From contig DATJRH010000011.1 of NCBI GenBank assembly GCA_035504945.1, positions 3,448-67,447 of the forward strand: DNA of 64,000 bases, given 5' to 3'. Each line of letters opens with the position of its first letter. Within the stretch, counting starts at the first letter, position 1. Made by a program: the position numbers and the translations under genes. Below, in pieces: positions 15,995-61,033 of this stretch. Under the pieces are notes generated by a model. It was given only the letters and a program-made list of their open reading frames with translations, ran no database searches and had not been told where the DNA came from. This DNA is from Candidatus Aquilonibacter sp. GTDB taxonomy: Bacteria; Verrucomicrobiota; Verrucomicrobiia; Limisphaerales; UBA11358.

Positions 15995-16975
15995 TCATTT
16001 TCGTTTTCCTGTGCGACTGACTTTATATGCAGGCGATTTTTCGGCCAGCACAAACGCAGTTTGATTTTCTGACTCGTATTCCACGTTCCCATTCAATTCG
16101 ATTTCGATTTCCTGCCCGTTAAAACAGGGATAAAGCGCGGCGAGCCGGGGAACCGCCTTTTGGGCGAGTTGAAAATATTCCGCATCCAATTCGAGTCCAA
16201 TGGAATTGTAACCAATCGCCTCGGCAGCGGCGATGGTCGAACCGGAACCCATGAATGGATCGAGAATCGTTCCTTCACCGAGCGGCAACAAGGCGCGCAC
16301 GATGAGGCGCATGAAATGTTGCGGCTTGAGGCAGGGATGATTGGAAATGGCTTCTTCGCGTTTCGGAGTTCGTCCGCTGGGAATCGCATCGGGCAACGGC
16401 TTGTCGAGTGAAAGACGGCGTAGCCCGCCGGTTGTCCATTTCCGCAGATTTTCGGCGACCGTTTTTGTTTCAATCGGCTTTCGAAAAAGCATCCACGGCT
16501 CGTAAGCACCTTTTGGGCTGACGCAAACTTCGGGAAATTCCGTCTCGGCATTTTTCGGGCGGTCGCCGCCGCGAAAGCTGTAATAAAGCCGCATGATGGC
16601 CGGGCGCACTTCAAACCCGGCTTCGGTCATCGCGCCTTGCACATGATGTTGAAGGATTGGGTGTCCAGCCACGCAGACATGAGCGCCGGGAACGAGCGCG
16701 TTCAAAAGCAGCTTTCCCCAATCGCGAAAATAATCACGCAAGTGTTGTTTCTGTTCGTCGGTAAGAATGGTAAATCGCGGAAGCGGATCACGATGACTGC
16801 CTCCGACTTTGGGCGGCAGGCGCCAGACGCCGCCACGTCCGATGCGAAGTTTCGCCAGTTCCTTTTCGGTAAATTCCAAGATGCCGTAGGGAGGATCGGT
16901 GCAAACGGCGTGAATCGAGCGCGCGGGGCATTGTCGCAGCCAGTCGAAGCAGTCGGTTTGTTCCAAATGAAACAT
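15995..16975 (-). CDS. DNA methyltransferase, beta class (N6-adenine or N4-cytosine)
   Basis: N-terminal VCTDPPYG (motif IV) and C-terminal ILDPFMGSGSTIAAAEAIG (motif I). Divergently paired with a nuclease gene. Confidence 0.85.
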   Translation of the reverse strand: MFHLEQTDCFDWLRQCPARSIHAVCTDPPYGILEFTEKELAKLRIGRGGVWRLPPKVGGSHRDPLPRFTILTDEQKQHLRDYFRDWGKLLLNALVPGAHVCVAGHPILQHHVQGAMTEAGFEVRPAIMRLYYSFRGGDRPKNAETEFPEVCVSPKGAYEPWMLFRKPIETKTVAENLRKWTTGGLRRLSLDKPLPDAIPSGRTPKREEAISNHPCLKPQHFMRLIVRALLPLGEGTILDPFMGSGSTIAAAEAIGYNSIGLELDAEYFQLAQKAVPRLAALYPCFNGQEIEIELNGNVEYESENQTAFVLAEKSPAYKVSRTGKRK

Positions 16976-17039
16976 GATTCAAATTTCAACTATAGGCGAA
17001 AGACAATCAAGCTCAAATCCTGTATCAACTAAAAGCGAA

Positions 17040-17924
17040 ATGGACACCAAAACTGTTTTGGGCCGCTTTGTTCGCGAACTGCGCGAACAGGCGAAGCTTA
17101 CACAAGACCAGTTGGCGCGTAAAACAGGAATCACCTATCAGTATCTTTCCAGCCTGGAAAACGGCCGGGAGAATTTTTCCATTGAGGTTTTGGATGCACT
17201 GGGAAAAGCGCTGGATACGCCGGTGCAGCAACTTGTGGCCGGAGCATTTGCCGAAAAAGATGTCACCCCGATTCCGACGGTTAATAAAGAATATTTTCAC
17301 CCGAAAGTTCCGCTGCCGCCGGGATTAAAGATTTCCCACCTCGAAGCGGCGATGAATGAATCGCAACGGATTGTGGCGGTCATCAACAGCAATTTGCGGG
17401 CGCATGGCGGAAGGCCGCTGTTCGATTACATCCAGGGAAACAATTTCAGCGGCCTCATTTCAAATATTTTATGCGATGCGATCAGTGAACATTCCCCTTA
17501 CAAGCACAATTCACATCAGGCATATCCCGATTTGATTAACCCAAAGGTCTTGGAGGACGGAAAACCGGCGGGCTTGGAGATTAAATCCACAATTCAAATC
17601 GGCAAGGGCGGAGAAAGCCACAATGGTCACTCCGGCTGGCATCTGGTTGCTTGTTATCGAATTGACCGTGAAAGCTGCCAGATCAAATTCGTTCACATTA
17701 TGATTGCAGTCTTGAATGGGCACACACATTCGCAGCCGGATTGGACTTACGTTGGCAGCAAAGTTAATGCGGTTACAGGCAGTCGGCGCACGGAAACTTA
17801 CAACACGACTTTGATTGGAACGACCAAATTGCGCGACGGTTCTATTTATCTTGATCCGGCAGTGGTTAATTTTAAGCGATGGCGCGTCAAACGGATTGGA
17901 GACAAGCCACCTCATGCGCTTTGA
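17040..17924 (+). CDS. putative type II restriction endonuclease with an N-terminal XRE-type HTH domain
   Basis: LTQDQLARKTGITYQYLSSLENGRENFS is an XRE-type HTH. The C-terminal half has a PD...E-x-K arrangement (AYPDLINP ... GLEIKST). It is visibly AT-richer than its surroundings. ATG 17040 is preferred, because the track start at 16974 would overlap the methyltransferase ATG. Confidence 0.6.
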   Translation: MDTKTVLGRFVRELREQAKLTQDQLARKTGITYQYLSSLENGRENFSIEVLDALGKALDTPVQQLVAGAFAEKDVTPIPTVNKEYFHPKVPLPPGLKISHLEAAMNESQRIVAVINSNLRAHGGRPLFDYIQGNNFSGLISNILCDAISEHSPYKHNSHQAYPDLINPKVLEDGKPAGLEIKSTIQIGKGGESHNGHSGWHLVACYRIDRESCQIKFVHIMIAVLNGHTHSQPDWTYVGSKVNAVTGSRRTETYNTTLIGTTKLRDGSIYLDPAVVNFKRWRVKRIGDKPPHAL

Positions 17925-36746: not shown

Positions 36747-37154
36747 TCACGCCAGCTTCTTCGCAATGTGCTCGTCGAGGATTTCCTGCACGGTCAGGGC
36801 GACGATGACTTTGTGGCTACGCTTGAAGAAGGATTCAATTTCGCGCAAGGCGTCGTCGGAATAATCAAACGACACGAAGAAACCTTTCTCGCAATCTTCG
36901 CGCATCATCATGGCTTCAAAGGAATCAATGTCGGGACGACCGACTTTGTCTTTTTGTTTCACTTGAATCGGATACCAGCGTTCTTTCAGGGCGAGTTCGC
37001 CTTCCTGTTTTTTGCGGGGCGTGGCGGCGGAACTCACGGGATAAATGCGGCCATCCACGCCCATGTCACCGACCTGGACTTTGTTCGGGATGCCGCCGAG
37101 AGCGATGACGGCCCGGTTTTCAAATTCAAATGGCGGAATGGCGTCACTTTGCAT
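36747..37154 (-). pseudogene. C-terminal Mrr-like nuclease-domain remnant of a methyltransferase-nuclease fusion (locus A)
   Basis: FEFENRAVIALGGIPNKVQVGDMGVDGRIY...WYPIQVKQKDKVGRPDIDSF aligns by eye with YQFQWWALGLVGARPVEQKKGADHGIDGKIL...IIIQVKGGKTGVKDVRDL of 57714..58574. The methyltransferase part is missing. Confidence 0.6.
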
Positions 37155-38577
37155 TTTTCTTTCCAGACGAACGTTTGCGTGGAATCCGGTAAACAATTTT
37201 TTGAGGATGTTGTGGAAGTTTCCATTTTGCCGGCTTGTCCCTCAATGCAACGACGTTTGGTTGTGACTCAAACTCCAGTGTGTTGGCAGTTCGATAAAGA
37301 CAAAAATTTTCAGCAATTCCGTTGGTTGTGGTTTCCTGCTCAACATTTGTGTTTGTGTTGCTGCCGAAAAGCTCCAAATGATTTTCCGCAACGGTCTTTC
37401 TTTTCTTCGTAACGTAATCGCCCATTGGCCGGCTGCCAAAGCGCAGTCGGTTGACGATTGCGCCAATTGCTTCATTGCTGTTATCAATTCCAATCCACCG
37501 TCGCCCTAAATTCCCGGCGGCAATCAGCGTTGTTCCCGAACCAGCAAAACAATCCAACACCAAGTCTCCCGGATTGGAGGATGCGCTGATAATTTGTTCC
37601 AGCATCTCGATGTTCTTCTCGGTTGGATAGCCCGTAATTTCGATGTTCTGGTTGTGAGCATCTTTGAAATCCAGCCAGATGTCTTGGACGGGAATCCCAT
37701 TGCTGTCGTCCAGGTAGATTTTTCGTCGGGGATTGCCGTTTGAGGACCAGAAGATTTCTCCTCTTCGATCCATTTCCTCCAGAACACTCGGCGGGAACTG
37801 CCAGTGCTTGCCGGGCGGCGGCAAAACACCGCGCCAAGGCTTCCCCGTTTCACCATTTCGGATGCCGGGCGCATGAATGGGAACTTTTTTGAATCTGCGT
37901 CCGGTTGATGCTTCCTCGTAAGTATATTCTTTTTTGGCGGTTTCTTCCGACCAGGCAATCACGGGACGATTCCAGATGTAAGTTTCTGTCTTTGAGTAAA
38001 ACAAAATATAATCGGAAATGTTTCCGTAAGTGCGGCGGGTGTAATTCTTGGTGTTGCACTTCTTTCGAGTGATAAAGTTTCTGAAATTTGCAGCGCCAAA
38101 AACTTCGTCCATCACGATCTTCATTGGAAATGCCATGTTTTCGTCAAGGTGGACATAGATTGAGCCGCGCGCCGAAAGTAATTCGCGGAGCAGAACCAAA
38201 CGTTCCCGAAGGAATTCGACAAACGCCGAGCCGGACAGCAAATCATGGTAGGCAATTTTCTGCTCGCGGGATTCAAAGACACTGTTCGTTGAATAGGGTG
38301 GATCAATATAAACGAGCGACACTTGCCCCCGAACAGCGGAATCATCCAAAAGAGTTCCGAGAATTTCCACATTGTCGCCGAAATAGAGCCTGTTTGCCCA
38401 CCCCTGCGAATGTCTTGGCGGCTGGGCGACGGTTAATTTTGCCTTCGGGCAATCGGCAATGATTTCAGAAGCCGTTCGCTTACCCTCATAATCCAAATTA
38501 AACTGACCACTTGTTCGCTGGTCGTGGCGATTTTCGACCGAGCCATTGGTTTTTGATTTTGGAATGCCGGTTGCCAT
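37144..38577 (-). CDS. DNA methyltransferase, beta class (DPPY)
   Basis: SLVYIDPPYSTNS (motif IV) and VLDCFAGSGTTLIAAGNLGRRWIGIDN (motif I). Visibly AT-richer than the flanks. Confidence 0.85.
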   Translation of the reverse strand: MATGIPKSKTNGSVENRHDQRTSGQFNLDYEGKRTASEIIADCPKAKLTVAQPPRHSQGWANRLYFGDNVEILGTLLDDSAVRGQVSLVYIDPPYSTNSVFESREQKIAYHDLLSGSAFVEFLRERLVLLRELLSARGSIYVHLDENMAFPMKIVMDEVFGAANFRNFITRKKCNTKNYTRRTYGNISDYILFYSKTETYIWNRPVIAWSEETAKKEYTYEEASTGRRFKKVPIHAPGIRNGETGKPWRGVLPPPGKHWQFPPSVLEEMDRRGEIFWSSNGNPRRKIYLDDSNGIPVQDIWLDFKDAHNQNIEITGYPTEKNIEMLEQIISASSNPGDLVLDCFAGSGTTLIAAGNLGRRWIGIDNSNEAIGAIVNRLRFGSRPMGDYVTKKRKTVAENHLELFGSNTNTNVEQETTTNGIAENFCLYRTANTLEFESQPNVVALRDKPAKWKLPQHPQKIVYRIPRKRSSGKKNAK

Positions 38578-38586
38578 GGGAGATTT

Positions 38587-39483
38587 TCAGTTTCGCAACC
38601 AATCGAGAGACAGGCGTTCTGGAATCATTCGCAAAGTTAACACCACGATTCTGCCCTTCTGACTTTGCTCAAGCCGCGCGTAATCATCCCACATGGAGCC
38701 GAGCAAAAGACCCGGACCGTCGTTTAAGAAAATCAATTTGGTTCGAAGCTTGTTGAGCTTCGTATACATGAACAACTCCTGCGCGCAGTTAAAATAACCG
38801 CCGGTGCGATCATCCTCTTGAGCGCCTCCCCGGTCAGAATCGTATCGCGCCAAACCGATTGCCAGAATCGAAGTTTTATCCTCATCGTATATGACGAAAT
38901 CCACGGGGCGGGAAAGATTCGGATAGCCGGTGAAAATATCGTGAAGCAGAATATCTTTGCCAGCGCCTTCCGGTCCTTTAACTGTCAGGGAGGGAAATTT
39001 CTCACGCAGCGTTTTGAAAAGTTTTGCGGTGAGGTCATACCCCTTTTTGCCTCGATCTTTGTATTCCCAAAGAACCGCACAAAGAGCCTCGTCTGGAATC
39101 GGGCGGGTTTTATACGCCTTTTGGACCTCTTGAACTGGCCGGAATTCTTTCCCGAAATATTCGATGATTTTTTCGCACGACGTCTTTTTTTTTAACATTT
39201 CCACCGGAGTATTGGGACTGACATATTTGCGAAAAACCCGCGCAAGTTGAATTCGCATCCAGCCTTCGGAAACGTCGCAAATCTGCCGGAACAAAGCCGC
39301 AGAAGATTCAGATGATTGGATGAATTGGCCAAATAGAATGAGAACCGGTTTATACAACTCGCAGGCTTGGGGCAAAATATCGGGGTAGAATTCGCCAGTG
39401 GCGAGCGTGATCCAATTATGCGCGTCTTTTTTGTAATCGCCGAAATTCGTTCTGATCGTTTTGTTTTTTTGGTTCAAGCGCAT
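38587..39483 (-). CDS. putative type II restriction endonuclease (possibly DpnII/MboI-like)
   Basis: 298-aa ORF 9 nt upstream of the methyltransferase on the same strand. RGKKGYDLTAKLF and PVDFVIYDEDKTSILAIGLARYDSDRGG resemble, from memory, the DpnII-family blocks (FDFVI...IE.NFY..GSK). Family assignment is unverified. Confidence 0.5.
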   Translation of the reverse strand: MRLNQKNKTIRTNFGDYKKDAHNWITLATGEFYPDILPQACELYKPVLILFGQFIQSSESSAALFRQICDVSEGWMRIQLARVFRKYVSPNTPVEMLKKKTSCEKIIEYFGKEFRPVQEVQKAYKTRPIPDEALCAVLWEYKDRGKKGYDLTAKLFKTLREKFPSLTVKGPEGAGKDILLHDIFTGYPNLSRPVDFVIYDEDKTSILAIGLARYDSDRGGAQEDDRTGGYFNCAQELFMYTKLNKLRTKLIFLNDGPGLLLGSMWDDYARLEQSQKGRIVVLTLRMIPERLSLDWLRN

Positions 39484-39489
39484 TGAGAT

Positions 39490-39852
39490 TTAACAGATTT
39501 GCCCGACCGGCACGAGAGCGTTTTGAAAATTATTTTCGCCGAAAATCTGGTCGAGCATGACTTTGACGTAGTGACTGGCGTGCCAGTCGCAGTGGTAATA
39601 AAAGCTGCCGGTCTTTTTGAGGACGCGGGCCAGTTGCACGCAGCGCGGGCGTCCCGCAGTCGCGGGATAAATCAAATCCACGCAGGCGTCGGGCAATTTG
39701 GCGAGCTGTTCCAGATTGTCGCCGCAATAAATGACGCGGGTGTCGAGGAGGCTGCTGGCGCGTAGCGGCGTTCGGGAGAGCGCCGCTGATTTCCGGCTTT
39801 TGGGCTTCACCGGCGGACTGCCGTCCGCCGCTACGTCCGATTTCTTTGCCAT
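39490..39852 (-). pseudogene. N-terminal remnant of a methyltransferase-nuclease fusion (locus A), with an internal deletion
   Basis: VIYCGDNLEQLAKLPDACVDLIY is followed directly by ...RPRCVQLARVLKKTGSFYYHCDWHASHYVKVMLDQIFGENNFQN, then an unrelated tail and a stop. The DPPF motif IV block expected after DLIY is missing. Confidence 0.6.
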
Positions 39853-39923
39853 GCGGCGAAGTTTGCGCGGGAAAACTATCGGCGTCAATTCCCGTCAAGT
39901 TAGGTATTTTCGCGCAAATAAAA

Positions 39924-54302: not shown

Positions 54303-56539
54303 AACACGCTCACGCTCAAAGGCGGCAGATAAAATTCCGCCGAGTTTTGCTGGCTGTGGCACGGAACATTTTCCGCCGTGACGCCACCCAAATTTCCCTT
54401 GTTGCCGCCGCAATAAATCCCGGCGTCGCTGTTCAACATTTCGCGCCACTTGCCGGCGCGCGGCAGGCCAAGACGGTATTTTTCGCGCGGCACGGGTGTG
54501 AGATTCAAAATAACGGCGAGCTGACTCGTAAAATCAGAATTTTGCCGGACAAATGAGAGCACACTGTTCTCAGTGTCGTTGCAATCAATCCAAAAAAATC
54601 CGGCGTGATCGTAATCCGCCTGCCACAACGCAGGTGATTTGGTGTAAAGCCGGTTCAAATCCTCGACAAATTTTTGCAAGCCACGATGAAACGGTCCGGC
54701 GTCAAGCAGCCACCAGTCGAGTTGCGCGTTTTCGTTCCATTCGACGCTCTGGCCGAATTCGCCGCCCATAAACAGTAATTTTTTTCCGGGGAAAAGCCAT
54801 TGGTAGCCGAGCAGCGCGCGCAGGTTCGCAAATTTCTGCCAGTCGTCGCCGGGCATCCGGCCAATCAATGAACGTTTGCCGTGGACGACTTCGTCGTGCG
54901 AGAGTGGCAGAATGAAATTCTCGTGATGGTGGTAGAGCATCGCGAAGGTGAGGTCGTTCTGATGATATTTGCGGTGAACCGGTTCATGCTGGAAATAGCC
55001 GAGCGTGTCGTGCATCCAGCCCATGTTCCATTTAAACGAAAAGCCAAGCCCGCCGAGATGCGGCGGGCGTGTGACGAGCGGCCAAGCGGTGGATTCCTCG
55101 GCGATGGTCACGATGCCGGGAAATTCCGAGTGCGCGATGTGGTTAAATTTTTTTAGAAATTCAATCGCCTCGAGATTTTCGCGCCCGCCGTATTGGTTTG
55201 GAATCCACTCGCCGGGTTTGCGCGAGTAATCGAGGTAGAGCATCGAGGCGACGGCATCCACGCGCAGGCCATCAATGTGAAACCGGTCGCACCAGAACAG
55301 CGCGTTGGCGACGAGAAAATTGTTCACCTCGTTGCGGCCAAAATTGAAAATCAGCGTGCCCCAATCTTGATGTGCGCCCTTCCGTGGGTCCTCATGCTCA
55401 AACAGCGCCGTGCCGTCGAATTTGGCGAGCGCCCACTCGTCGCGCGGAAAATGCGCCGGCACCCAATCCACGATGACGCCGATGCCGGCCTCGTGCAGCG
55501 CATTGACGAGAAATTGGAAATCGTCCGGCGTGCCGAAGCGGCTGGTCGGCGCATAAAAGCCGGTAACTTGATAACCCCACGACGGATAAAAGGCGTGCTC
55601 GGCCACGGGCAGAAATTCGACATGCGTGAAACCCATCCGCTTGACGTAAAGCACGAGCGGCTCGGCAAGTTCGCGGTAGCTCCAGGATTCCGTCGCGGAT
55701 TTTTTTTGCCACGAGCCGGCGTGGACTTCATAAATGCTCATTGGCGAGCGCAGGGCGTCGCGTTCGCGACGTTTTTTCAGCCAGGCAGCATCGCTCCATT
55801 TGAATTTTTTGGTGTCCCAAACGATGGCGGCATTTTTCGGCGGGACTTCAAAGAAAAATCCGAACGGGTCGGTGTTGAGCTTGATGTTTCCGTGCGCGTC
55901 GCGGATTTCAAATTTATAATGCGCGCCCTGCCCCACGCCGGGAACAAAAATTTCCCAGACGCCGGACGCGCCGAGCAGCCGCAGGGGATGAAAACGGCCA
56001 TCCCAATTATTGAAATCGCCGACGACGCTGACGCGCTGCGCGTTCGGCGCCCAGACGGCAAAGCTCGCACCGGGAACGCCGTCAATGATCCGCAAATGCG
56101 CGCCGAGCTTGTCGTAGATTTTCCGTTCGTCGCCCTTGCCGAAGAGGAACAAATCGGACTCACCGAGCGTCGGCAGAAAAGAGAACGCATCGCGCGTGCG
56201 GCGCACACGGCCTTGATGATCGGTGATGACCAGGTCATAGGCGTAAACCTTGTTTGCGGATTTGGTGACGCCTTCAAATACATCGGTGTCGGGAATCCGC
56301 TTCAGTTCGAGTTTTGGTTTGTCTTTTTCGTGAGTGGGCTGGATTTCAACTTTGGCGGCGTCGGGAAGAAGCGCGCGGACGACGAGACCGGATTTATCGC
56401 CGAGCGGGTGCATGCCGAGCAGCGTGTGGGGTGATTGATGGATCAACTCAACCAAGCTGTGTAGTTCTTCGCGCGAAAGAATCATTGCGGCGAGGATAGC
56501 AACCACGGGCGAAAGCAGCGATATAATTTCAAATGACAT
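54287..56539 (-). CDS. glgB: 1,4-alpha-glucan branching enzyme
   Basis: FAVWAPNAQRVSVVGDFNNWDG, GIGVIVDWVPAHF, HIDGLRVDAVASMLY, AEESTAWP, LSHDEVVHGK. Start is ATG 56539 or 56485. The track extension to 56797 is rejected. Confidence 0.9.
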   Translation of the reverse strand: MSFEIISLLSPVVAILAAMILSREELHSLVELIHQSPHTLLGMHPLGDKSGLVVRALLPDAAKVEIQPTHEKDKPKLELKRIPDTDVFEGVTKSANKVYAYDLVITDHQGRVRRTRDAFSFLPTLGESDLFLFGKGDERKIYDKLGAHLRIIDGVPGASFAVWAPNAQRVSVVGDFNNWDGRFHPLRLLGASGVWEIFVPGVGQGAHYKFEIRDAHGNIKLNTDPFGFFFEVPPKNAAIVWDTKKFKWSDAAWLKKRRERDALRSPMSIYEVHAGSWQKKSATESWSYRELAEPLVLYVKRMGFTHVEFLPVAEHAFYPSWGYQVTGFYAPTSRFGTPDDFQFLVNALHEAGIGVIVDWVPAHFPRDEWALAKFDGTALFEHEDPRKGAHQDWGTLIFNFGRNEVNNFLVANALFWCDRFHIDGLRVDAVASMLYLDYSRKPGEWIPNQYGGRENLEAIEFLKKFNHIAHSEFPGIVTIAEESTAWPLVTRPPHLGGLGFSFKWNMGWMHDTLGYFQHEPVHRKYHQNDLTFAMLYHHHENFILPLSHDEVVHGKRSLIGRMPGDDWQKFANLRALLGYQWLFPGKKLLFMGGEFGQSVEWNENAQLDWWLLDAGPFHRGLQKFVEDLNRLYTKSPALWQADYDHAGFFWIDCNDTENSVLSFVRQNSDFTSQLAVILNLTPVPREKYRLGLPRAGKWREMLNSDAGIYCGGNKGNLGGVTAENVPCHSQQNSAEFYLPPLSVSVFQSES

Positions 56540-57347
56540 AATCGTGGACGCCGGCGAACGGCGCGTGGCCGTTTGAAAAATTGGTTGGATTAGCTTGGAT
56601 TGGGTCGGATTTAGTTGGACTGGGTTTGGTTTCAGCCGGTGCATCCGGTCCGCGATTGTCCATCCGCGCCCAATCGGGCATGGACAAGCCATGCTGAACT
56701 CGAACGAGCCAATCGGCCCATTTTTTGCCGTATTCGCCGCCGCCAAGGGTCTCCGCCAGCAAACTCTTTTCGTGTATCGCAAAGAACCTATCGACACGGC
56801 TTTTTATTTCTTCCTTTTCCCTACGCTTGTCCGCCTCCTCGTCCTCATCTGCCATTTGCCGGTTCCAACGCTCGCGTTTGATCAACGTTCGCACGGCACG
56901 GTGGCCGTCGCACTGCAATTGGGACAATTTCGGGAGCACTTCGTAAATAATTTTGCAGCGTTTTTCCGTATCGGTCTCCTTTTTCAAACGTGCGCTGGTC
57001 ACGCATATAAGTTCCGCCGCGATCACACTGGCAAAACGGTCGCTGATTTCCATGCCATCAGCCGCCTCGTCCAAATCTTCAGCCTGCTCGGTCAGATTGC
57101 TCACGAGAAGCCGCGTTTCCTGCTGCTGCAACCACTCCGGATAACCGCGCTGCTTCCATTCGGAAAGATTCTGTTCGGTGATGGGACGTCCCTCAAACTG
57201 CTCTTGCAATAAATGCAGCGCGTCCGGTTCGCAATTGAGCCATTTCACCAGTTCCCTGCCCGGTTCACCGTCCTCGATGCGGCGATTCAACTGGTCGCGG
57301 ATGTATTTGGGCAAGCGTCCGATTTTGCCGACGTGAGTGGTGCTCAT
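56529..57347 (-). CDS. hypothetical protein with N-terminal RLPKYIRDQLNRRIEDGE (possibly DNA-binding) and a coiled-coil, charged middle
   Basis: ATG 57347 lies 8 nt after the KTSC gene. The C-terminal ~30 aa read through a 10-bp tandem repeat and may not be genuine protein. Confidence 0.55.
   Translation of the reverse strand: MSTTHVGKIGRLPKYIRDQLNRRIEDGEPGRELVKWLNCEPDALHLLQEQFEGRPITEQNLSEWKQRGYPEWLQQQETRLLVSNLTEQAEDLDEAADGMEISDRFASVIAAELICVTSARLKKETDTEKRCKIIYEVLPKLSQLQCDGHRAVRTLIKRERWNRQMADEDEEADKRREKEEIKSRVDRFFAIHEKSLLAETLGGGEYGKKWADWLVRVQHGLSMPDWARMDNRGPDAPAETKPSPTKSDPIQANPTNFSNGHAPFAGVHDYVI
56581..56630. repeat. 5 x 10-bp tandem repeat upstream of glgB
   Basis: TTGGTTGGAT TAGCTTGGAT TGGGTCGGAT TTAGTTGGAC TGGGTTTGGT. 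Confidence 0.75.
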
Positions 57348-57354
57348 AATTTTG

Positions 57355-57546
57355 TCAATGGTAGCGACCGCGAATATGCTGGTTGTAATACGACCCCATG
57401 GACGAAGCATTCATGAATTCCCGATAGACCGTTGGCGGCACGCCGGGATGGTCGTAAATGCGGCCGGTGTGGAATTCGACGGTGAGCGTGTAGCCATCGT
57501 AGCCAACGGCGCGAATCGAACTTGAATTTACGGGCATCATGCTCAT
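57355..57546 (-). CDS. KTSC domain-containing small protein
   Basis: VNSSSIRAVGYDGYTLTVEFHTGRIYDHPGVPPTVYREFMNASSMGSYYNQHIRGRY fits the KTSC pattern. TTTAAT-N8-ATG lies upstream. Confidence 0.7.
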   Translation of the reverse strand: MSMMPVNSSSIRAVGYDGYTLTVEFHTGRIYDHPGVPPTVYREFMNASSMGSYYNQHIRGRYH

Positions 57547-57713
57547 ATTGCGCGATTAAAGCACAATTCCTCCATTTTTAATTGGCGACCATCGCGGATT
57601 ATTTCATTTCCAAATGCAAGTTGTTGCAACGGAACGAAATAAAAACGCATTATTTCGAATTCATGGGCAAAAATTCGATTGCGACCCGAGTCGGAAGATG
57701 TGTTTGGAGAGTT

Positions 57714-58574
57714 TTACAACTCCAACGCTTTTTGTTCGTGCTGTTTCCTTTTTGATTCCGGGGCTTTTTTGAAGGTTTCGTCCAAGGCGGCGACGGTGGA
57801 CGGGCGTTCGATGCCTTTGCCGTCCATCAATTCTTTCACGGTGCGGAGCTGGAGGCGCGGGTATTTCTGCCGGTTCAGCTTGTGCTCGTAGAATCCGGCG
57901 CTGGCGGCCTCGGCCTGCATCTCGCGCGTGGGTGGTTGCAGGGAAATCAGAACGCCGATGGCGGCTTGCTCGCGGTCCAGCACGCCGCGCAAATCCCGCA
58001 CGTCCTTCACGCCGGTCTTGCCGCCCTTGACCTGGATGATGATTTGCTCCGGCTTGGCCACGGTGAGGTCGTCGCGGAAAAGGATTTTGCCGTCAATACC
58101 GTGGTCCGCGCCTTTCTTCTGCTCGACGGGGCGCGCGCCGACGAGGCCGAGCGCCCACCATTGGAACTGATATTTGTCATCCTCGGCGAGTTGCGCGGCT
58201 TCGTTGGGCGTGGTGGGTTCGCCGATGATGCGGACGGTCGAAGTTCGACTTCCCATTTCGGTAGGAGTCGAGGTAACGAGACTCTGACTATTTTCGGGCC
58301 GAGAAGTTTGAGCCTCCTCACGTCGGCTCCTACTGGATTCAGAAAGAGAACCGCTCACGAATTTCAGGCGGCTGCCGTAGGCGTCTTGCAGGCGGTTTTT
58401 GATGAGGGAAATGGCCAGTTGCGTCACGTCAATGCCAATCCAGTCGCGGCCGAGTTTTTCGGCGGCGTCAATCGTCGTGCCGCAGCCGCAGAACGGGTCG
58501 AGAACCACGTCGCCGGGATTGGAACTTTGCTTGATGATGCGTTCCAAAAGCGTTCCTGTTCTTAATTGCTCCAT
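57714..58574 (-). pseudogene. C-terminal part of a methyltransferase-Mrr fusion (locus B): motif I region plus nuclease domain
   Basis: Begins at ...LLERIIKQSSNPGDVVLDPFCGCGTTIDAAEKLGRDWIGID (motif I), then GADHGIDGKILF...IIIQVKGGKTGVKDVRDLRGV (Mrr-like). It lacks motif IV, which lies in the 60522..60908 fragment. Confidence 0.65.
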
Positions 58575-59563
58575 CCGCGTAACTTTTGACCAAATTCCAA
58601 GTATTCAGGCAAAGGATAGATTTGCTTCTTTGCCGGCAATAAAATTTCATCCCGCAATGCTGCCTTGAACTCGGTTTCACCGCCATGCCAACCGATCATA
58701 CGCAACCGCAGAAATTCTTTTTCGCTGCAAATTATTGCATAATTTGGTTGAACCGTAATTAGAGCGTGGTCAAACGCGCGATGGTGGAGAGCGCAAAGAG
58801 AAAGCCCATTTTTGATTTCATCTGTCCCGCGTTCATGCTCCACAGGAACGATGTGCGCTGCGTCCAACAAATCCAACTGAACACCACAAACGCAGCAGCG
58901 ATGACTGTATGCCTTCAAAACATTTGCCCGAAAACGAGCGTCGCGAATTTTTCGATTCACAGTCTGCAAAACTTGCCGCCGCTCTTTTGGTTCGATGTCG
59001 TCAAGGTCAAAGTCCACCGCCTCTTCGCGCGAGATTCGTTCTAATGCTTTGGTTTCGAGAACTGCGGCTGACGTTTGGTGCAGTTCCGATGAGCCTAAAA
59101 CGTATGAGGTGAAGAAATCAGGGCGAAATGCAATCGCGACTTCTTGATTGTCCCGGGCCTGTGGCGCGAATCCGTTCCTGACCGCTTTTTCCAACGCCTC
59201 GCGTTTTATTTGAATTGATGGCGACCGCCCCTCCATCGAAATTTGATGTTTGGTTGCGTCGAAGCCCGCAAAAACTCTCAAAGCATCTGACCATCCCAAA
59301 AGCAGCGTTTTCCAACCTTCACGAAGTTCAATTTGGCTAACGCCAGTTACCTGAATACGAAACTCATTCGGGTCTCGCGGAAATCCACCGTGCGTCAAAT
59401 TCCAGATATAAACCAGCAACGAAACCTTTGTATCTCCTTTGAAAATGGATAACGCAAACGGATGGTCGTCGCGTGATGATAAAATCAAAACGTCCCATCC
59501 ACATGCGTGAATAGCTTCAATGACGAGATCGAGCAGTCTTGGTTTTTGTAGGATTTTTGCCAT
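58562..59563 (-). CDS. HNH-family restriction endonuclease candidate
   Basis: CCVCGVQLDLLDAAHIVPVEHERGTDEIKNGLSLCALHHRAFD (HNH_2-type motif) in the C-terminal third, with a ~200-aa N-terminal domain of unknown specificity. Adjacent to a methyltransferase. Confidence 0.7.
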   Translation of the reverse strand: MAKILQKPRLLDLVIEAIHACGWDVLILSSRDDHPFALSIFKGDTKVSLLVYIWNLTHGGFPRDPNEFRIQVTGVSQIELREGWKTLLLGWSDALRVFAGFDATKHQISMEGRSPSIQIKREALEKAVRNGFAPQARDNQEVAIAFRPDFFTSYVLGSSELHQTSAAVLETKALERISREEAVDFDLDDIEPKERRQVLQTVNRKIRDARFRANVLKAYSHRCCVCGVQLDLLDAAHIVPVEHERGTDEIKNGLSLCALHHRAFDHALITVQPNYAIICSEKEFLRLRMIGWHGGETEFKAALRDEILLPAKKQIYPLPEYLEFGQKLRGWSN

Positions 59564-60479
59564 AGGGGATAGATGCCTCCTTTAAGAGGAGTGGTTGTTC
59601 GTCTTCCTGAAATCTCATTTTTGAACCTCGGATGTAATCTTCATTGATTTCCATTGTCATCCAATACCGCGCCATGTGTTCCGCAGCCTCACCAGCCGAG
59701 CCAGAACCGCCGAAGGGATCAAGCACCATGTCGCCTTCGTCGGTGAGAAAGCGGATGAAAAATTCGGCAAATGCAACCGGAAACCGCGCCGGGTGCAATT
59801 GCAAATTGTTTTCTTTGCACCGCCGAATGTAACCGCTGTTGCTTTCGGAATTTGCCAACGCCAGAACATTGGGTGCAATAGCTCCTCCGTTGTTTGTCAG
59901 AAACGAGGTTGGGCTGATGTCGTGCTCCGATGGTCTGCGACCGGCGTTGTAAGATTTGCGATTCAGCAAATCTTGCATCGCGTCGCTGTAAGCCAACAAA
60001 ACTTTCCGATTGTCGCTCTTGGGGTTTTCTGTCTTGCTTAACCACCAAACAACGTTGACAGAATCTTTCAGCCGGACGCGGCGAACCGTAACCCACTCGG
60101 CAGGCGTAGGCAGGCGCGTTGGATTGTAGTGAAACAATTCTTGCGCCAGATGAAATCCTCCCTCGTTGCACAGTTTGATCAACAGTTCATATTGGTAAAG
60201 CGAGCGCGTCGGCGCGCCTTTGCGGTATGCACCTCCCAAATCCAAAACGAAACTTCCGTCACTTTTCAAAATTCGGTGAATTTCGTTCGCAAACGGCATG
60301 AACCATTGAACATATTCGTGGTCTTCTTTATTTCCGTAGGCTTTTTTCCGGGTGAGCGCGAATGGTGGAGAGGTTACGACCAAATTGATTGATTCATCAG
60401 GAAGTTCTTTCATCAATTCCAGCGAATCGCCCAAAAGAGCTTTCCCGTATTCGGTCTCGAAATATGGTTCGGTTTGCAT
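59517..60479 (-). CDS. DNA methyltransferase, beta class (SPPF, so N4-cytosine or N6-adenine)
   Basis: NLVVTSPPFAL (motif IV) and VLDPFGGSGSAGEAAE (motif I). 47-nt overlap with the HNH gene. Confidence 0.85.
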   Translation of the reverse strand: MQTEPYFETEYGKALLGDSLELMKELPDESINLVVTSPPFALTRKKAYGNKEDHEYVQWFMPFANEIHRILKSDGSFVLDLGGAYRKGAPTRSLYQYELLIKLCNEGGFHLAQELFHYNPTRLPTPAEWVTVRRVRLKDSVNVVWWLSKTENPKSDNRKVLLAYSDAMQDLLNRKSYNAGRRPSEHDISPTSFLTNNGGAIAPNVLALANSESNSGYIRRCKENNLQLHPARFPVAFAEFFIRFLTDEGDMVLDPFGGSGSAGEAAEHMARYWMTMEINEDYIRGSKMRFQEDEQPLLLKEASIPYGKNPTKTKTARSRH

Positions 60480-60521
60480 CAGCGATTTGATTTTACTCGC
60501 AGGGAATTGAATGGTCGAGCT

Positions 60522-60908
60522 TTAGGCGGTCGGGTCGCAGTGGAGATAAAGCGAGCCGGTGGGTTTGAGGACGCGGCGGAGTTCGACCAGGCGCGGGCAC
60601 ATCATGGCGAGGTAGGCCATCATGTCGTTGGTGCCGAGAAAGGTTTTGAACGCCTGCATGACTTCGCCGACCTTGCCGGGCTGGAGAATCAGTTCCTCAT
60701 AAACGCGCTGGCTTTCCTGATTCCACGTCCAGGTGTCCTCAAAGGCGCGAATCTGGCTGGCGGCGGCGGAGCCGTCCTTTTCCTGAAAGAAGGCGTTGTA
60801 GTTCTGGGCGGAGTTGAAGGGCGGATCGAGATAAACGAGGTCAACGGATTCATCCTTGAGGTAACGCCGGAGGATGTCGAGGTTGTCGCCGTAATAAAGC
60901 GTGCCCAT
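60522..60908 (-). pseudogene. N-terminal part of a methyltransferase-Mrr fusion (locus B)
   Basis: MGTLYYGDNLDILRRYLKDESVDLVYLDPPFNS...MCPRLVELRRVLKPTGSLYLHCDPTA, then TAA where homologues (compare 39490..39852) continue SHY.K..LD.IFG. Confidence 0.65.
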
Positions 60909-60920
60909 TTGAGAGTGGAT

Positions 60921-60969
60921 GGTTGAGGGTTGAGAGTTGAGAGTCAAGGCGGAAGGCGGAGAGCGGCGC
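60921..60969. repeat. 7 x 7-bp tandem repeat 12 nt upstream of the 60908 start
   Basis: GGTTGAG GGTTGAG AGTTGAG AGTCAAG GCGGAAG GCGGAGA GCGGCGC. Confidence 0.75.
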
Positions 60970-60998
60970 AGGGGAAGCGAGGGCTGGGAGCCAGCGGC

Positions 60999-61033
60999 TT
61001 GAAGTCCGGGCAAAACGTGACAAAATTAGAGGA
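60999..61033 (+). promoter_or_regulatory. TTGAAG-N16-CAAAAT-N7-GTG promoter abutting the start of 61034..61780
   Basis: TTGAAG at 60999-61004, CAAAAT at 61021-61026, GTG at 61034. Confidence 0.45.

What the first reader, a model, noticed from the sequence alone, without database searches (positions are those of the whole stretch)
57714..61013. Complete R-M cassette (SPPF methyltransferase + HNH nuclease) nested inside a split methyltransferase-Mrr fusion gene (locus B)
Seen: all four ORFs are on the minus strand. ORF 60522..60908 encodes the N-terminal third of a PF01555-type methyltransferase (YYGDNLDIL, VDLVYLDPPFNS, LYLHCDPTA). It then hits TAA exactly where the paralogue at 39490..39852 continues SHYVKVMLDQIFG. 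ORF 57714..58574 resumes at ...LLERIIKQSSNPGDVVLDPFCGCGTT (motif I) and runs into an Mrr-like nuclease domain (GIDGKILF...IIIQVKGGK). The roughly 2 kb between them carries an intact methyltransferase (59517..60479) and an HNH protein (58562..59563). The HNH stop codon sits on the junction. This stretch looks AT-richer than the flanks. Established: R-M gene complexes behave as selfish mobile units and have been described inserted into other R-M genes. Inference: an incoming R-M cassette replaced the catalytic core of a resident methyltransferase-nuclease and inactivated it.
Basis: partly seen in the sequence, partly recalled or inferred. Interest (0 to 1): 0.7.

Follow-up and report, generated by a model that had tools for sequence, protein, structure and literature searches.

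The report
Restriction cassette nested in dead restriction gene
A small, foreign two-gene restriction-modification unit has replaced the middle of a resident one-protein methylase-nuclease gene, and relatives of this unit sit inside other restriction genes in many genomes, still carrying a scrap of an earlier host gene that now serves as part of their promoter.

Summary
ORF 60525..60908(-) is codons 1-128 of a ~575-aa methyltransferase-Mrr fusion, and 57714..58550(-) is codons 305-575 of the same family. More than 8000 intact homologues exist. The missing 176 codons are replaced by about 1.97 kb. This insert holds a promoter, an M.PvuII-family N4-cytosine methyltransferase and an MTaX1-HNH nuclease. 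Its GC is 0.48 against 0.58-0.59 in the remnants. The same junctions appear in two other assemblies.

About 88%-identical cassettes lie co-oriented inside split methyltransferase-Mrr, MmeI-like and Eco57I-like genes elsewhere. An unrelated BstEII-type cassette does the same at window locus A and inside an MmeI-like gene elsewhere.

The cassette's -35 box (CTCGACC) is a relic of methyltransferase-Mrr coding sequence (..SHYVKVMLDQ). It is read in the host frame in L123 and is still recognisable in an intergenic copy (L014).

Best model: a cassette lineage that lives in single-chain R-M genes and spreads partly by recombination through their conserved ends. No repeats, integrase or target duplication were found. 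This is a new variant of known R-M mobility and is moderately interesting.

The parts
60525..60908 (-). 5' remnant of the resident methyltransferase-Mrr gene. It covers codons 1-128, includes motif IV (DPPF) and ends ..LYLHCDPTA.
   Evidence: 96.9% aa identity to P0001 residues 1-128. 96.6% nt identity to the intact gene in L004, nt 1-385. dN/dS against intact genes is 0.07-0.08, like intact-versus-intact at 0.057.
60480..60524 (-). Cassette leader. TAAAGCTCGACC (60524..60513) supplies the stop codon of the N-fragment and holds the -35-like TCGACC (60518..60513). A 17-nt spacer follows, then -10 TAAAAT (60495..60490), then 10 nt to the M start codon.
   Evidence: Promoter scan hit TCGACC-17-TAAAAT. 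The same motif, spacing and -10 box occur in cassettes from unrelated contexts. The motif is a relic of methyltransferase-Mrr coding sequence.
59517..60479 (-). Cassette methyltransferase, 320 aa, of the M.PvuII family (N4-cytosine, beta class). It has SPPF and DPFGGSGS motifs.
   Evidence: PF01555 positions 1-219 of 221, E 1e-35. PDB 1BOO (M.PvuII) E 4e-100 over residues 4-293. PADLOC MTase_II E 7e-112.
58562..59563 (-). Cassette nuclease, 333 aa, with an N-terminal MTaX1 domain and a C-terminal HNH_2 domain. It overlaps the end of M by 47 nt.
   Evidence: MTaX1 E 1.5e-27 and HNH_2 E 1e-12. 1371 homologues, mostly 330-335 aa; residues such as H237, N252, H260 and H261 are invariant. It is linked to an M homologue in nearly all of 80 genome loci.
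58551..58561 (-). 11-nt joint between the HNH stop codon and the first recognisable base of the 3' remnant. Its origin is uncertain.
   Evidence: Comparison with intact genes in L004 and L006. tblastn limit at 58550.
57714..58550 (-). 3' remnant of the resident gene, codons 305-575 plus the stop. It runs ..LLERII, motif I DPFCGCGTT, linker, Mrr-type PD-(D/E)xK nuclease domain. An ATG at 58574..58572 overlaps the HNH stop and opens this frame.
   Evidence: 88.1% aa identity to P0001 residues 305-575. Pfam PF01555 positions 170-219, Mrr_cat and NA-iREase1. No stop or frameshift in 837 nt. dN/dS 0.20-0.29 against 0.15 for intact pairs.
39490..39888 (-). Second instance (locus A): 5' remnant of a second methyltransferase-Mrr gene of another subfamily. 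It ends ..MLDQIFGENNFQN and also carries an internal deletion of about 38 codons that removes DPPF.
   Evidence: Intact homologue P0364 (510 aa) covers it: residues 2-123 at 60% identity. Alignment.
38587..39483 (-). Locus A cassette gene 1: BstEII-family restriction endonuclease, 298 aa.
   Evidence: 3485 homologues; several NCBI entries are named bstEII. GC 0.474.
37144..38577 (-). Locus A cassette gene 2: methyltransferase, 477 aa, with its native stop codon.
   Evidence: PF01555 E 2e-46. Homology to cassettes in L118 and L120 ends at the same stop.
36747..37151 (-). Locus A: 3' remnant (Mrr nuclease domain) of the second methyltransferase-Mrr gene. It resumes at IPPFEFEN within 6 nt of the cassette's stop codon.
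   Evidence: 69% identity to P0364 residues 377-510. Mrr_cat E 8e-6.

Best explanation
Shown:
- The resident gene was a single-chain methyltransferase-Mrr nuclease (PF01555 + Mrr_cat, ~575 aa). This is a very common stand-alone gene in Verrucomicrobiota-type metagenomes.
- Its codons 129-304 have been replaced by a self-contained, horizontally acquired Type II restriction-modification cassette. The cassette consists of its own promoter, an M.PvuII-family N4-cytosine methyltransferase and an MTaX1-HNH nuclease.
- The resident gene is therefore dead. Both its activities were lost in one step, and the cassette is the working system at this locus.
- The cassette belongs to a lineage that repeatedly sits, always co-oriented, inside single-chain R-M genes (methyltransferase-Mrr, MmeI-like, Eco57I-like).
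- Its -35 box is a relic of the ..SHYVKVMLDQ codons of an earlier methyltransferase-Mrr host.

Inferred:
- The cassette most likely entered this gene by recombination between the resident gene and the short homologous arms of a donor allele that already carried the cassette. The left joint lies in the conserved ..LYLHCDPTA block, in homologous register with the relic.
- Jumps to unrelated genes and to intergenic sites occur by illegitimate recombination that drags along a few to tens of bases of the old host.
- Single-chain R-M genes tolerate this because nuclease and methylase disappear together.
For: Split of one gene:
- Both fragments map collinearly on one protein, with residues 129-304 absent.

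Foreign cassette:
- GC 0.47-0.49 against 0.58-0.59 in the remnants.
- The same cassette keeps GC 0.45-0.49 in seven loci whose flanks are 0.54-0.61; two short contigs (L096, L100) have AT-rich flanks of 0.45-0.48.

Cassette intact:
- Full-length Pfam and M.PvuII matches, and conserved HNH residues.

Real junctions:
- L002 is identical across both junctions. An NCBI MAG holds the identical M and HNH proteins and a 128-aa N-fragment in the same 90% cluster.

No transposon features:
- No flanking direct or inverted repeats. No integrase or transposase among neighbours.

Own promoter:
- TCGACC-17-TAAAAT, conserved in position across contexts.

Recurrent nesting of cassettes that are 79-92% identical (aa):
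- MmeI_N(+hel) | cassette | MmeI_C in L008 and L011/L012/L098.
- Eco57I/N6_Mtase truncated just before NPPY | cassette | C-terminal tail in L020.
- Methyltransferase-Mrr remnants in L104/L105, L095, L123 and L103.
- L100 carries 77 nt and 52 nt of L011-type arms into a new site.

Relic:
- In L123 the host frame reads ..DWHASHYAKVMLDQ through ATGCTCGACCAA into the leader.
- Intergenic L014 keeps TTACTACG-AAAGTCATTCTCGACC, matching host CACTACGTCAAAGTCATGCTCGACC.
- The motif is absent from all but one of the cassettes at 40-58% identity.

Recent event, or arms supplied by the recipient:
- The N-fragment is 96.6% identical in nt to an intact gene elsewhere, with dN/dS 0.08.

Generality:
- An unrelated BstEII-type cassette is nested in a second methyltransferase-Mrr gene in this window and in an MmeI-like gene in L115.
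Against: - No syntenic uninterrupted allele from a close relative and no donor allele were found, so the direction and the recombination route are inferred from anatomy.
- In the window itself the relic is only 11-12 nt. The argument for it rests on L123 and L014.
- Arm-mediated recombination cannot explain why MmeI-like and Eco57I-like genes are also hit, by both cassette types.
- Cassettes differ by about 20% in nt, so non-coding ends carried along long ago would no longer be recognisable. 'Minimal unit' is firm only where host remnants define the edges.
- Both remnants are still open reading frames. The 3' remnant has an ATG overlapping the HNH stop, so some residual function is not excluded.
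- All sequences are metagenome assemblies, and some taxonomic labels conflict.
Confidence: 0.7

Rival explanations
1. De novo illegitimate insertion-deletion. It survived because a single-chain R-M gene is a safe place to land: it is non-essential, and nuclease and methylase are lost together. The relic-like motif is simply the cassette's promoter.
For: - No repeats or target duplication.
- Non-homologous substitution of 528 bp by 1.97 kb.
- The same cassette also lies between housekeeping genes in L014, L017, L019, L026, L097, L102 and L108.
- It also lies in genes with no similarity to methyltransferase-Mrr, namely MmeI-like and Eco57I-like.
- L100 shows imprecise ends being dragged along.
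Against: - The left joint lies in the conserved HCDPTA block, in register with the relic of the homologous block of another subfamily.
- Four left joints in methyltransferase-Mrr genes fall within about 28 codons of a 1.7-kb gene.
- All nested copies are co-oriented with the host gene.
Confidence: 0.2
2. The arrangement is functional rather than a wreck. The remnants, especially the 3' piece with motif I plus the Mrr nuclease, are kept and expressed with the cassette by translational coupling, for example as an extra stand-alone nuclease.
For: - Both remnants are uninterrupted ORFs.
- The N-fragment shows dN/dS 0.07-0.08.
- The ATG at 58574 overlaps the HNH stop.
- Similar ATGs lie within about 13 nt of the last stop codon at locus A, L011 and L020.
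Against: - The stretch between SHYLK.. and ..YPTQKP, which I take to include the target-recognition region, is gone, so the methylase cannot work.
- Other nested copies show decaying remnants: internal deletions in the locus A N-fragment and in L123, a 65-aa Mrr stub in L095, and deletions in L098.
- dN/dS of the 3' piece is raised (0.20-0.29 against 0.15).
- The ATG observation is post hoc.
Confidence: 0.07
3. Artefact: a chimeric metagenome assembly, or two unrelated gene remnants that merely flank an R-M pair in a defence island.
For: The source is a short-read metagenome contig. The N- and C-fragments differ in divergence from L004 (dS 0.13 against 0.42).
Against: - An independent Logan contig is identical across both junctions.
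- A third assembly in NCBI holds the identical M and HNH proteins and a 128-aa N-fragment in the same 90% cluster.
- The fragments are co-oriented, non-overlapping, in order, and best matched by the same intact protein.
- The family is mosaic in general: L004 against L006 gives dS 0.41 and 0.80 for the two parts.
Confidence: 0.03

Closest known systems
PvuII restriction-modification system (M.PvuII, PDB 1BOO)
   Same: The cassette methyltransferase aligns with M.PvuII over its whole length (E 4e-100; more than half of the aligned positions are identical by eye), including the SPPF motif. It is a small two-gene Type II unit.
   Different: The nuclease is an MTaX1-HNH protein, not the PD-(D/E)xK enzyme R.PvuII; its best PDB match is only the HNH part of TagI. 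There is no C-protein in the close clade. The recognition sequence is unknown.
Mobile forms and allelic substitution of R-M systems (Furuta, Abe and Kobayashi 2010, PMC2853133)
   Same: R-M units that move without classical mobility genes. Substitution of one R-M allele by another between conserved flanks. Exchange of the target-recognition region inside Type IIG genes.
   Different: In the window the conserved 'flanks' are the two ends of one R-M gene, and the incoming allele is a whole two-gene system. No long target duplication, inverted repeats or integrase are present. In the passages of that paper I searched I did not find a case of a Type II pair nested inside a single-chain R-M gene.
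R-M systems acting as mobile elements without transposon structures in Candidatus Endomicrobium trichonymphae (Zheng et al. 2016, PMC4760077)
   Same: Insertions of R-M genes with no repeats or mobility genes, often followed by decay into pseudogenes.
   Different: That paper reports insertions linked to genome rearrangements in an endosymbiont. The part I read does not mention a preference for other R-M genes, co-orientation or a host-derived promoter relic.
Homology-facilitated illegitimate recombination and allele replacement through conserved arms (general bacterial genetics, from my own knowledge)
   Same: A foreign segment enters when one or both sides find homology in the recipient. This fits a joint in the conserved HCDPTA block and remnants that look like the recipient's own gene.
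   Different: This was not demonstrated here. No donor allele or empty site was recovered.
Homing endonuclease genes (free-standing HNH)
   Same: An HNH nuclease gene sits inside a conserved host gene and spreads among homologous genes.
   Different: The nuclease is paired with a protective methylase as an R-M system. The host gene is destroyed, not spliced back. There is no evidence that the enzyme targets the intact allele.

Membership tests
Type II restriction-modification system (separate M and R genes) | Complete DNA methyltransferase with SAM-binding and catalytic motifs | tested here: met
   PF01555 positions 1-219 of 221. Full-length alignment to M.PvuII with SPPF and DPFGGSGS.
Type II restriction-modification system (separate M and R genes) | Adjacent nuclease gene with an intact catalytic motif | tested here: met
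   HNH_2 E 1e-12. Invariant H237, N252, H260 and H261 in a 36-sequence alignment headed by the window protein.
Type II restriction-modification system (separate M and R genes) | M and R genes kept together across unrelated genomes | tested here: met
   An M homologue lies directly upstream of the HNH gene in nearly all of 80 genome loci from several phyla wherever the contig allows.
Type II restriction-modification system (separate M and R genes) | Nuclease cuts the unmethylated site, and the cognate methylation protects | not testable with these tools
   This needs enzyme assays or methylome data. Note that HNH_2 relatives in the PDB and NCBIfam are modification-dependent enzymes, so the direction of discrimination is inferred from the conserved pairing.
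PvuII system proper | R.PvuII-type PD-(D/E)xK nuclease partner | tested here: not met
   The partner is MTaX1-HNH. The PDB search gave no R.PvuII match.
Methyltransferase-Mrr single-chain fusion (PF01555 + PF04471), the resident gene | N- and C-terminal parts collinear with one intact family member | tested here: met
   P0001 residues 1-128 and 305-575.
Methyltransferase-Mrr single-chain fusion (PF01555 + PF04471), the resident gene | Uninterrupted reading frame including the central region | tested here: not met
   Residues 129-304 are absent and replaced by the cassette. The gene is a remnant, not a member in working order.
Repeat-flanked or integrase-linked mobile R-M units (Furuta et al. 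2010 classes) | Long target duplication, short target duplication with terminal inverted repeats, or a linked integrase or transposase | tested here: not met
   No repeat pair brackets 58551..60524. No mobility gene in 20 kb around the locus.
Allelic substitution of R-M loci | Same chromosomal position holds a different R-M content in a close relative, with conserved flanks | tested here: inconclusive
   Within the gene, the conserved ends are retained and the middle is exchanged. No syntenic relative was recovered; the intact genes found lie in other contexts.
Homing endonuclease gene | Nuclease specifically cleaves the uninterrupted allele and is copied into it | not tested
   There is no way to test cleavage here. 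CAGCTG is absent from the two intact genes examined, which gives no support.

The most novel reading that the evidence does not exclude
Small Type II R-M cassettes in this bacterial group may be specialised parasites of other restriction genes. They would preferentially replace the core of single-chain R-M enzymes (methyltransferase-Mrr, MmeI-like, Eco57I-like), always in the sense orientation. They would use the conserved gene ends as a portable landing platform and recycle host codons as their promoter. This would amount to targeted warfare between defence systems, perhaps helped by breaks made by the incoming nuclease or by selection against a competing methylase, rather than passive landing in dispensable DNA.
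Probability: 0.2. Interest if true: 0.8.

Novelty: new variant of a known kind. Interest (0 to 1): 0.55.

Why it matters
R-M systems are known to behave as selfish, mobile units, but how units without any mobility gene find new sites is poorly understood. This locus and its relatives contribute four things:

1. They give a concrete trail. The same cassette lineage sits in three unrelated families of single-chain R-M genes. A second, unrelated cassette does the same, and a molecular fossil (host codons turned into the -35 box) records an earlier host.
2. They suggest that abundant single-chain R-M genes with conserved ends and a variable middle act as exchange platforms for whole defence systems. 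If so, turnover of defence repertoires may involve one system overwriting another.
3. For annotation, they explain many short 'methyltransferase' and 'restriction endonuclease' fragments in metagenomes.
4. They make a testable prediction for methylomes: 4mC from the cassette, and loss of the resident enzyme's mark.

Tried and rejected
- **Transposon-like or integrative mobility.** There are no direct or inverted repeats bracketing the insert. The only long inverted pair (57705-57732 with 58546-58573, 71%) brackets the C-fragment and is at chance level. No integrase or transposase lies nearby.
- **Syntenic empty site.** The intact homologues I could place (P0002, P0005) lie in unrelated neighbourhoods.
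- **General rule for the whole M + MTaX1-HNH family.** Same-strand flanks of the 70-odd genome loci that had adequate flanking sequence, mostly at 40-58% identity, are mostly housekeeping genes. Five carry an HTH regulator. Nesting is therefore a property of the close clade, not of the family.
- **'Defined cassette ends'.** I first read the sharp ATG-to-stop homology among cassettes as fixed ends. I rejected this because copies differ by about 20% in nt, so neutral flanks would be unrecognisable. L097/L019 and L011/L100 also share extra bases beyond the core.
- **Homing by the cassette nuclease at a PvuII site in the intact gene.** CAGCTG is absent from the two intact genes examined.
- **Literature.** MTaX1 is mentioned only as a methylase-associated domain possibly discriminating modified DNA (PMC10853773). 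The literature searches I ran and the passages of PMC2853133, PMC4615327 and PMC4760077 that I read turned up no description of a Type II pair nested in a Type IIG-like gene.
- **Neighbouring proteins.** The 293-aa and 248-aa neighbours gave no match in Pfam or NCBIfam, and the 293-aa protein gave none in PADLOC.
- **Not attempted.** Structure prediction was judged unnecessary.

Full report
**1. Observation**

Pfam gives the following:
- 60522..60908: PF01555 positions 1-55.
- 59517..60479: a full PF01555 domain.
- 58562..59563: MTaX1 plus HNH_2.
- 57714..58574: PF01555 positions 170-219 followed by Mrr_cat.

GC falls from about 0.58 to about 0.48 between roughly 58500 and 60500. Gene by gene, GC is 0.487 (M) and 0.473 (HNH) against 0.584 and 0.591 for the two fragments. 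GC3 is 0.46-0.53 against 0.72-0.79.

**2. The resident gene**

A search with the two fragments joined returned 8000 proteins, the cap of the tool. The listed best hits are roughly 490-660 aa, and nearly all carry PF01555 + Mrr_cat + NA-iREase1. Where they are named, the label is Verrucomicrobiota.

The intact 575-aa P0001 maps with residues 1-128 on 60908..60525 (96.9%) and residues 305-575 on 58550..57717 (88.1%). So one gene has lost residues 129-304.
- The lost stretch runs from SHYLK.. to ..YPTQKP and covers the most variable part of the family alignment. I take it to include the target-recognition region; that is an inference.
- Motif IV (DPPF) and motif I (DPFCGCGTT) survive in the remnants, so 'catalytic core replaced' is slightly off.

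Intact genes stand alone among housekeeping genes in unrelated neighbourhoods. I know of no biochemical study of this fusion. Calling it a single-chain R-M enzyme is an inference from its domains.

**3. The insert**

The methyltransferase aligns with M.PvuII (PDB 1BOO) over residues 4-293, E 4e-100, including SPPF.

The nuclease has 1371 homologues, mostly 330-335 aa, with invariant His/Asn/His positions. Its only PDB matches are the HNH parts of TagI and another HNH enzyme. MTaX1 is described as a methylase-associated domain possibly discriminating modified DNA (PMC10853773).

The M-HNH pair is conserved in 80 genome loci from Verrucomicrobiota, Nitrospirota, Chloroflexota, Bacteroidota and others. 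It is therefore a bona fide Type II-style pair, although the cleavage specificity is untested.

**4. Not an artefact**

- The window is ENA ERZ27256528 contig k141_934762.
- A Logan contig from run SRR8879135 is 100% identical over 58443..60576, across both junctions.
- The identical M and HNH proteins, and a 128-aa N-fragment protein in the same 90% cluster as the window's, also occur with adjacent accessions (HTX20883-HTX20885) in an NCBI TPA MAG. That MAG is labelled Candidatus Aquilonibacter. This label disagrees with the Verrucomicrobiota labels of most relatives, so I leave the organism open.

**5. Junction anatomy**

*Left joint.*
- Intact genes read ..GACCCGACCGCC TCGCATTATCTC.. The window reads ..GACCCGACCGCC TAAAGCTCGACCattc...
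- The N-fragment is 96.6% identical in nt to the L004 gene up to nt 385.
- The 45-nt leader holds TCGACC, a 17-nt spacer and TAAAAT, ending 10 nt before the ATG. The promoter scan finds this site.

*Right joint.*
- The HNH stop is followed by 11 nt of uncertain origin and then ..CTTTTGGAACGCATC (LLERI).

*Overall.*
- In total, 528 bp were exchanged for about 1974 bp.
- No direct or inverted repeat brackets the insert, and no mobility gene is near.
- dN/dS of the N-fragment against intact genes (0.07-0.08) equals that between intact genes (0.057). For the C-fragment it is somewhat raised (0.20-0.29 against 0.15).
- The event is therefore young relative to the divergence of the family, or the arms are the recipient's own sequence.

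**6. The same cassette elsewhere**

Cassettes with 79-92% aa identity (about 79% nt) share homology only from just upstream of the M start to the HNH stop. In seven loci whose flanks are 0.54-0.61 GC they keep 0.45-0.49; two short contigs (L096, L100) have flanks of 0.45-0.48.

*Confirmed by Pfam as nested, co-oriented with a split gene:*
- L008 (= L016): MmeI_N + MmeI_hel | cassette | MmeI_C.
- L011/L012: MmeI_N | cassette | MmeI_C (L098 carries the same arms by blastx).
- L020: Eco57I/N6_Mtase ending at ..FDVVIG just before NPPY | cassette | C-terminal tail ..IDERVYELYALTPEEI.

*By sequence comparison only:*
- L104/L105: a methyltransferase-Mrr N-fragment ending 27 nt earlier than in the window, followed by the same TAAAGCTCGACC.
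- L095: a 65-aa Mrr stub after the stop codon.
- L100: 77 nt and 52 nt of L011-type arms carried into a new place that ends in a Type IIG-like tail.
- L103: a 15-codon methylase N-terminus.
- L123 group (see section 7).

*Between housekeeping genes:* L014, L017, L019, L026, L097, L102, L108, L131 and probably L007.

That makes about nine of roughly twenty-two distinct contexts inside R-M genes, all in the sense orientation. Such genes are a tiny part of a genome; this is my estimate, not a measurement.

Distant family members (40-58% identity) sit mostly between housekeeping genes. Nesting therefore characterises this clade, not the whole family.

**7. A fossil in the promoter**

In L123 the host reading frame runs ..SSLLDIRVVFGGDWHASHYAKVMLDQ. 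The codons ATG CTC GAC CAA are at the same time the CTCGACC box, 17 nt before TAAAAT of the cassette.

The window's own locus A gene gives the intact version, CACTACGTCAAAGTCATGCTCGACCAG (SHYVKVMLDQ).

L014 lies between a membrane-protein gene and lpxD and has no R-M remnant in its flanks. It still carries TTACTACG-AAAGTCATTCTCGACC at the same place.

The box is present in nearly all close-clade cassettes and in only one of the cassettes at 40-58% identity, L039. A 7-mer in exact register would match by chance about 6e-5 of the time, and L014 adds some 14 further matching bases.

I conclude that the close clade descends from a copy nested in a methyltransferase-Mrr gene right after MLDQ, and that host codons became its -35 box.

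In the window, the resident P0001-type sequence ends at ..HCDPTA and the relic follows in the homologous register. This is what recombination between the resident gene and a short donor arm would leave.

The left joints in methyltransferase-Mrr genes lie within about 28 codons of one another:
- L104: after TGS.
- Window locus B: after CDPTA.
- L123: after MLDQ.
- Window locus A: after FGENNFQN.

**8. Locus A**

At 36747..39888 a second fusion gene of another subfamily is split in the same way. The intact homologue is P0364, 510 aa.

The insert is an unrelated cassette: a BstEII-family nuclease plus a 477-aa methylase, with GC 0.47-0.48. Its right joint lies within 6 nt of the methylase stop codon.

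Relatives of this cassette are nested between MmeI_N/hel and MmeI_C in L115, and lie between rpoD and a GH172 gene in L118 and L120. The MmeI arms of L115 and L011 are homologous (70-78% nt). So one MmeI subfamily has been hit by both cassette types.

**9. Mechanism and rivals**

*Shown:*
- Substitution of the gene's middle by a foreign, self-promoted R-M pair.
- Recurrence in three host families with two cassette types.
- Sense orientation throughout.
- The relic.
- Imprecise carry-over of old arms (L100).
- No transposon features.

*Inferred:*
- Spread among methyltransferase-Mrr genes by recombination through conserved ends.
- Illegitimate recombination for the other jumps.
- Tolerance of the host-gene loss because nuclease and methylase are lost together.

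*Rivals:*
- De novo illegitimate insertion without arms: 0.2.
- Retained function of the remnants: 0.07. This is not exclusive of the main model. ATGs overlap or abut the last stop codon in the window's loci A and B, in L011 and in L020.
- Artefact: 0.03.

*Unexplained:*
- Why MmeI-like and Eco57I-like genes are also targets.
- Why orientation is always sense. Read-through compatibility is a guess.

**10. Comparison with what is known**

R-M units moving without mobility genes, allelic substitution and exchange of target-recognition regions in Type IIG genes are described in PMC2853133. Repeat-free R-M insertions are described in PMC4760077. I found no description of Type II pairs nested recurrently in single-chain R-M genes, nor of a host-derived promoter relic, but the library searched is incomplete.

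Verdict: a real feature, with the interpretation supported. It is a new variant of a known kind, of moderate interest (0.55).

**11. Limits**

- All data are metagenome assemblies.
- No empty site or donor allele was recovered.
- Specificities and expression are untested.
- Independence of the nested events is judged from different hosts and joints, not from a phylogeny.

Noticed in passing
window 36747..39888: A second split methyltransferase-Mrr gene of another subfamily (intact homologue P0364). It carries a BstEII-family nuclease plus a 477-aa methylase in its middle. Its N-fragment also has an internal deletion of about 38 codons that removes DPPF.
   Followed up: yes
window 15995..17924: A third Type II-like pair. 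A 326-aa PF01555-type methylase (DPPY, DPFMGSGST) lies on the minus strand. Divergent from it is a 316-aa protein with an N-terminal Cro/C1-like HTH and a C-terminal part that looks like a PD-(D/E)xK nuclease. It was seen only by ORF listing and a weak tblastn hit.
   Followed up: partly
whole window: There is strong avoidance of several 6-bp palindromes against a Markov expectation: GTCGAC 0 against 13.5, ATCGAT 0 against 8.0, GAGCTC 1 against 8.1, CTCGAG 3 against 19.4, CAGCTG 2 against 12.2. GGTNACC is not avoided (9 against 12.6). The sample is only 64 kb.
   Followed up: partly
window 56529..57546; L008 10809..12315; L011 8892..9837; L012 5837..6432: A KTSC-domain gene and a following 155-293-aa protein with no Pfam, NCBIfam or PADLOC match recur downstream of the split R-M genes in the window, L008 and L011; L012 shows only the weak nucleotide similarity (no KTSC call). 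They may be part of a larger unit that carries the R-M fusion genes.
   Followed up: partly
window 58572..58574; 37152..37154; L011 7006; L020 7003: The 3' host remnant has an in-frame ATG overlapping, or within a few bases of, the stop codon of the cassette's last gene in four of six nested loci with a known right flank. This suggests translational coupling of the remnant. It is a post hoc observation.
   Followed up: no
L012 1838..2801: In this strain the cassette methylase is split by a frameshift (127 + 153 aa) while the HNH gene is intact. This would be dangerous unless another copy supplies methylation, or the nuclease is inactive.
   Followed up: no
L123 3188..5730: Right of the cassette lie a 121-aa ORF, a fragment of a D12-class (Dam-like) methylase, a 211-aa ORF, an Eco57I-type gene on the other strand, and cas1. 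This looks like a stack of R-M remnants in a defence island.
   Followed up: no
protein clusters: Most of the 150 best database relatives of the locus A Mrr fragment are proteins of only 70-200 aa. The 90% cluster of the window's N-fragment holds 14 members of 81-202 aa. These gene families are very often seen as fragments, either from contig ends or from further disruptions of the same kind.
   Followed up: no
window 60909..60945: A short imperfect repeat, CTCAACYCTCAAC.., lies directly upstream of the methyltransferase-Mrr start codon (D7). A similar leader precedes the homologous N-fragment in L104. It may be a conserved 5' element of the fusion-gene family.
   Followed up: no
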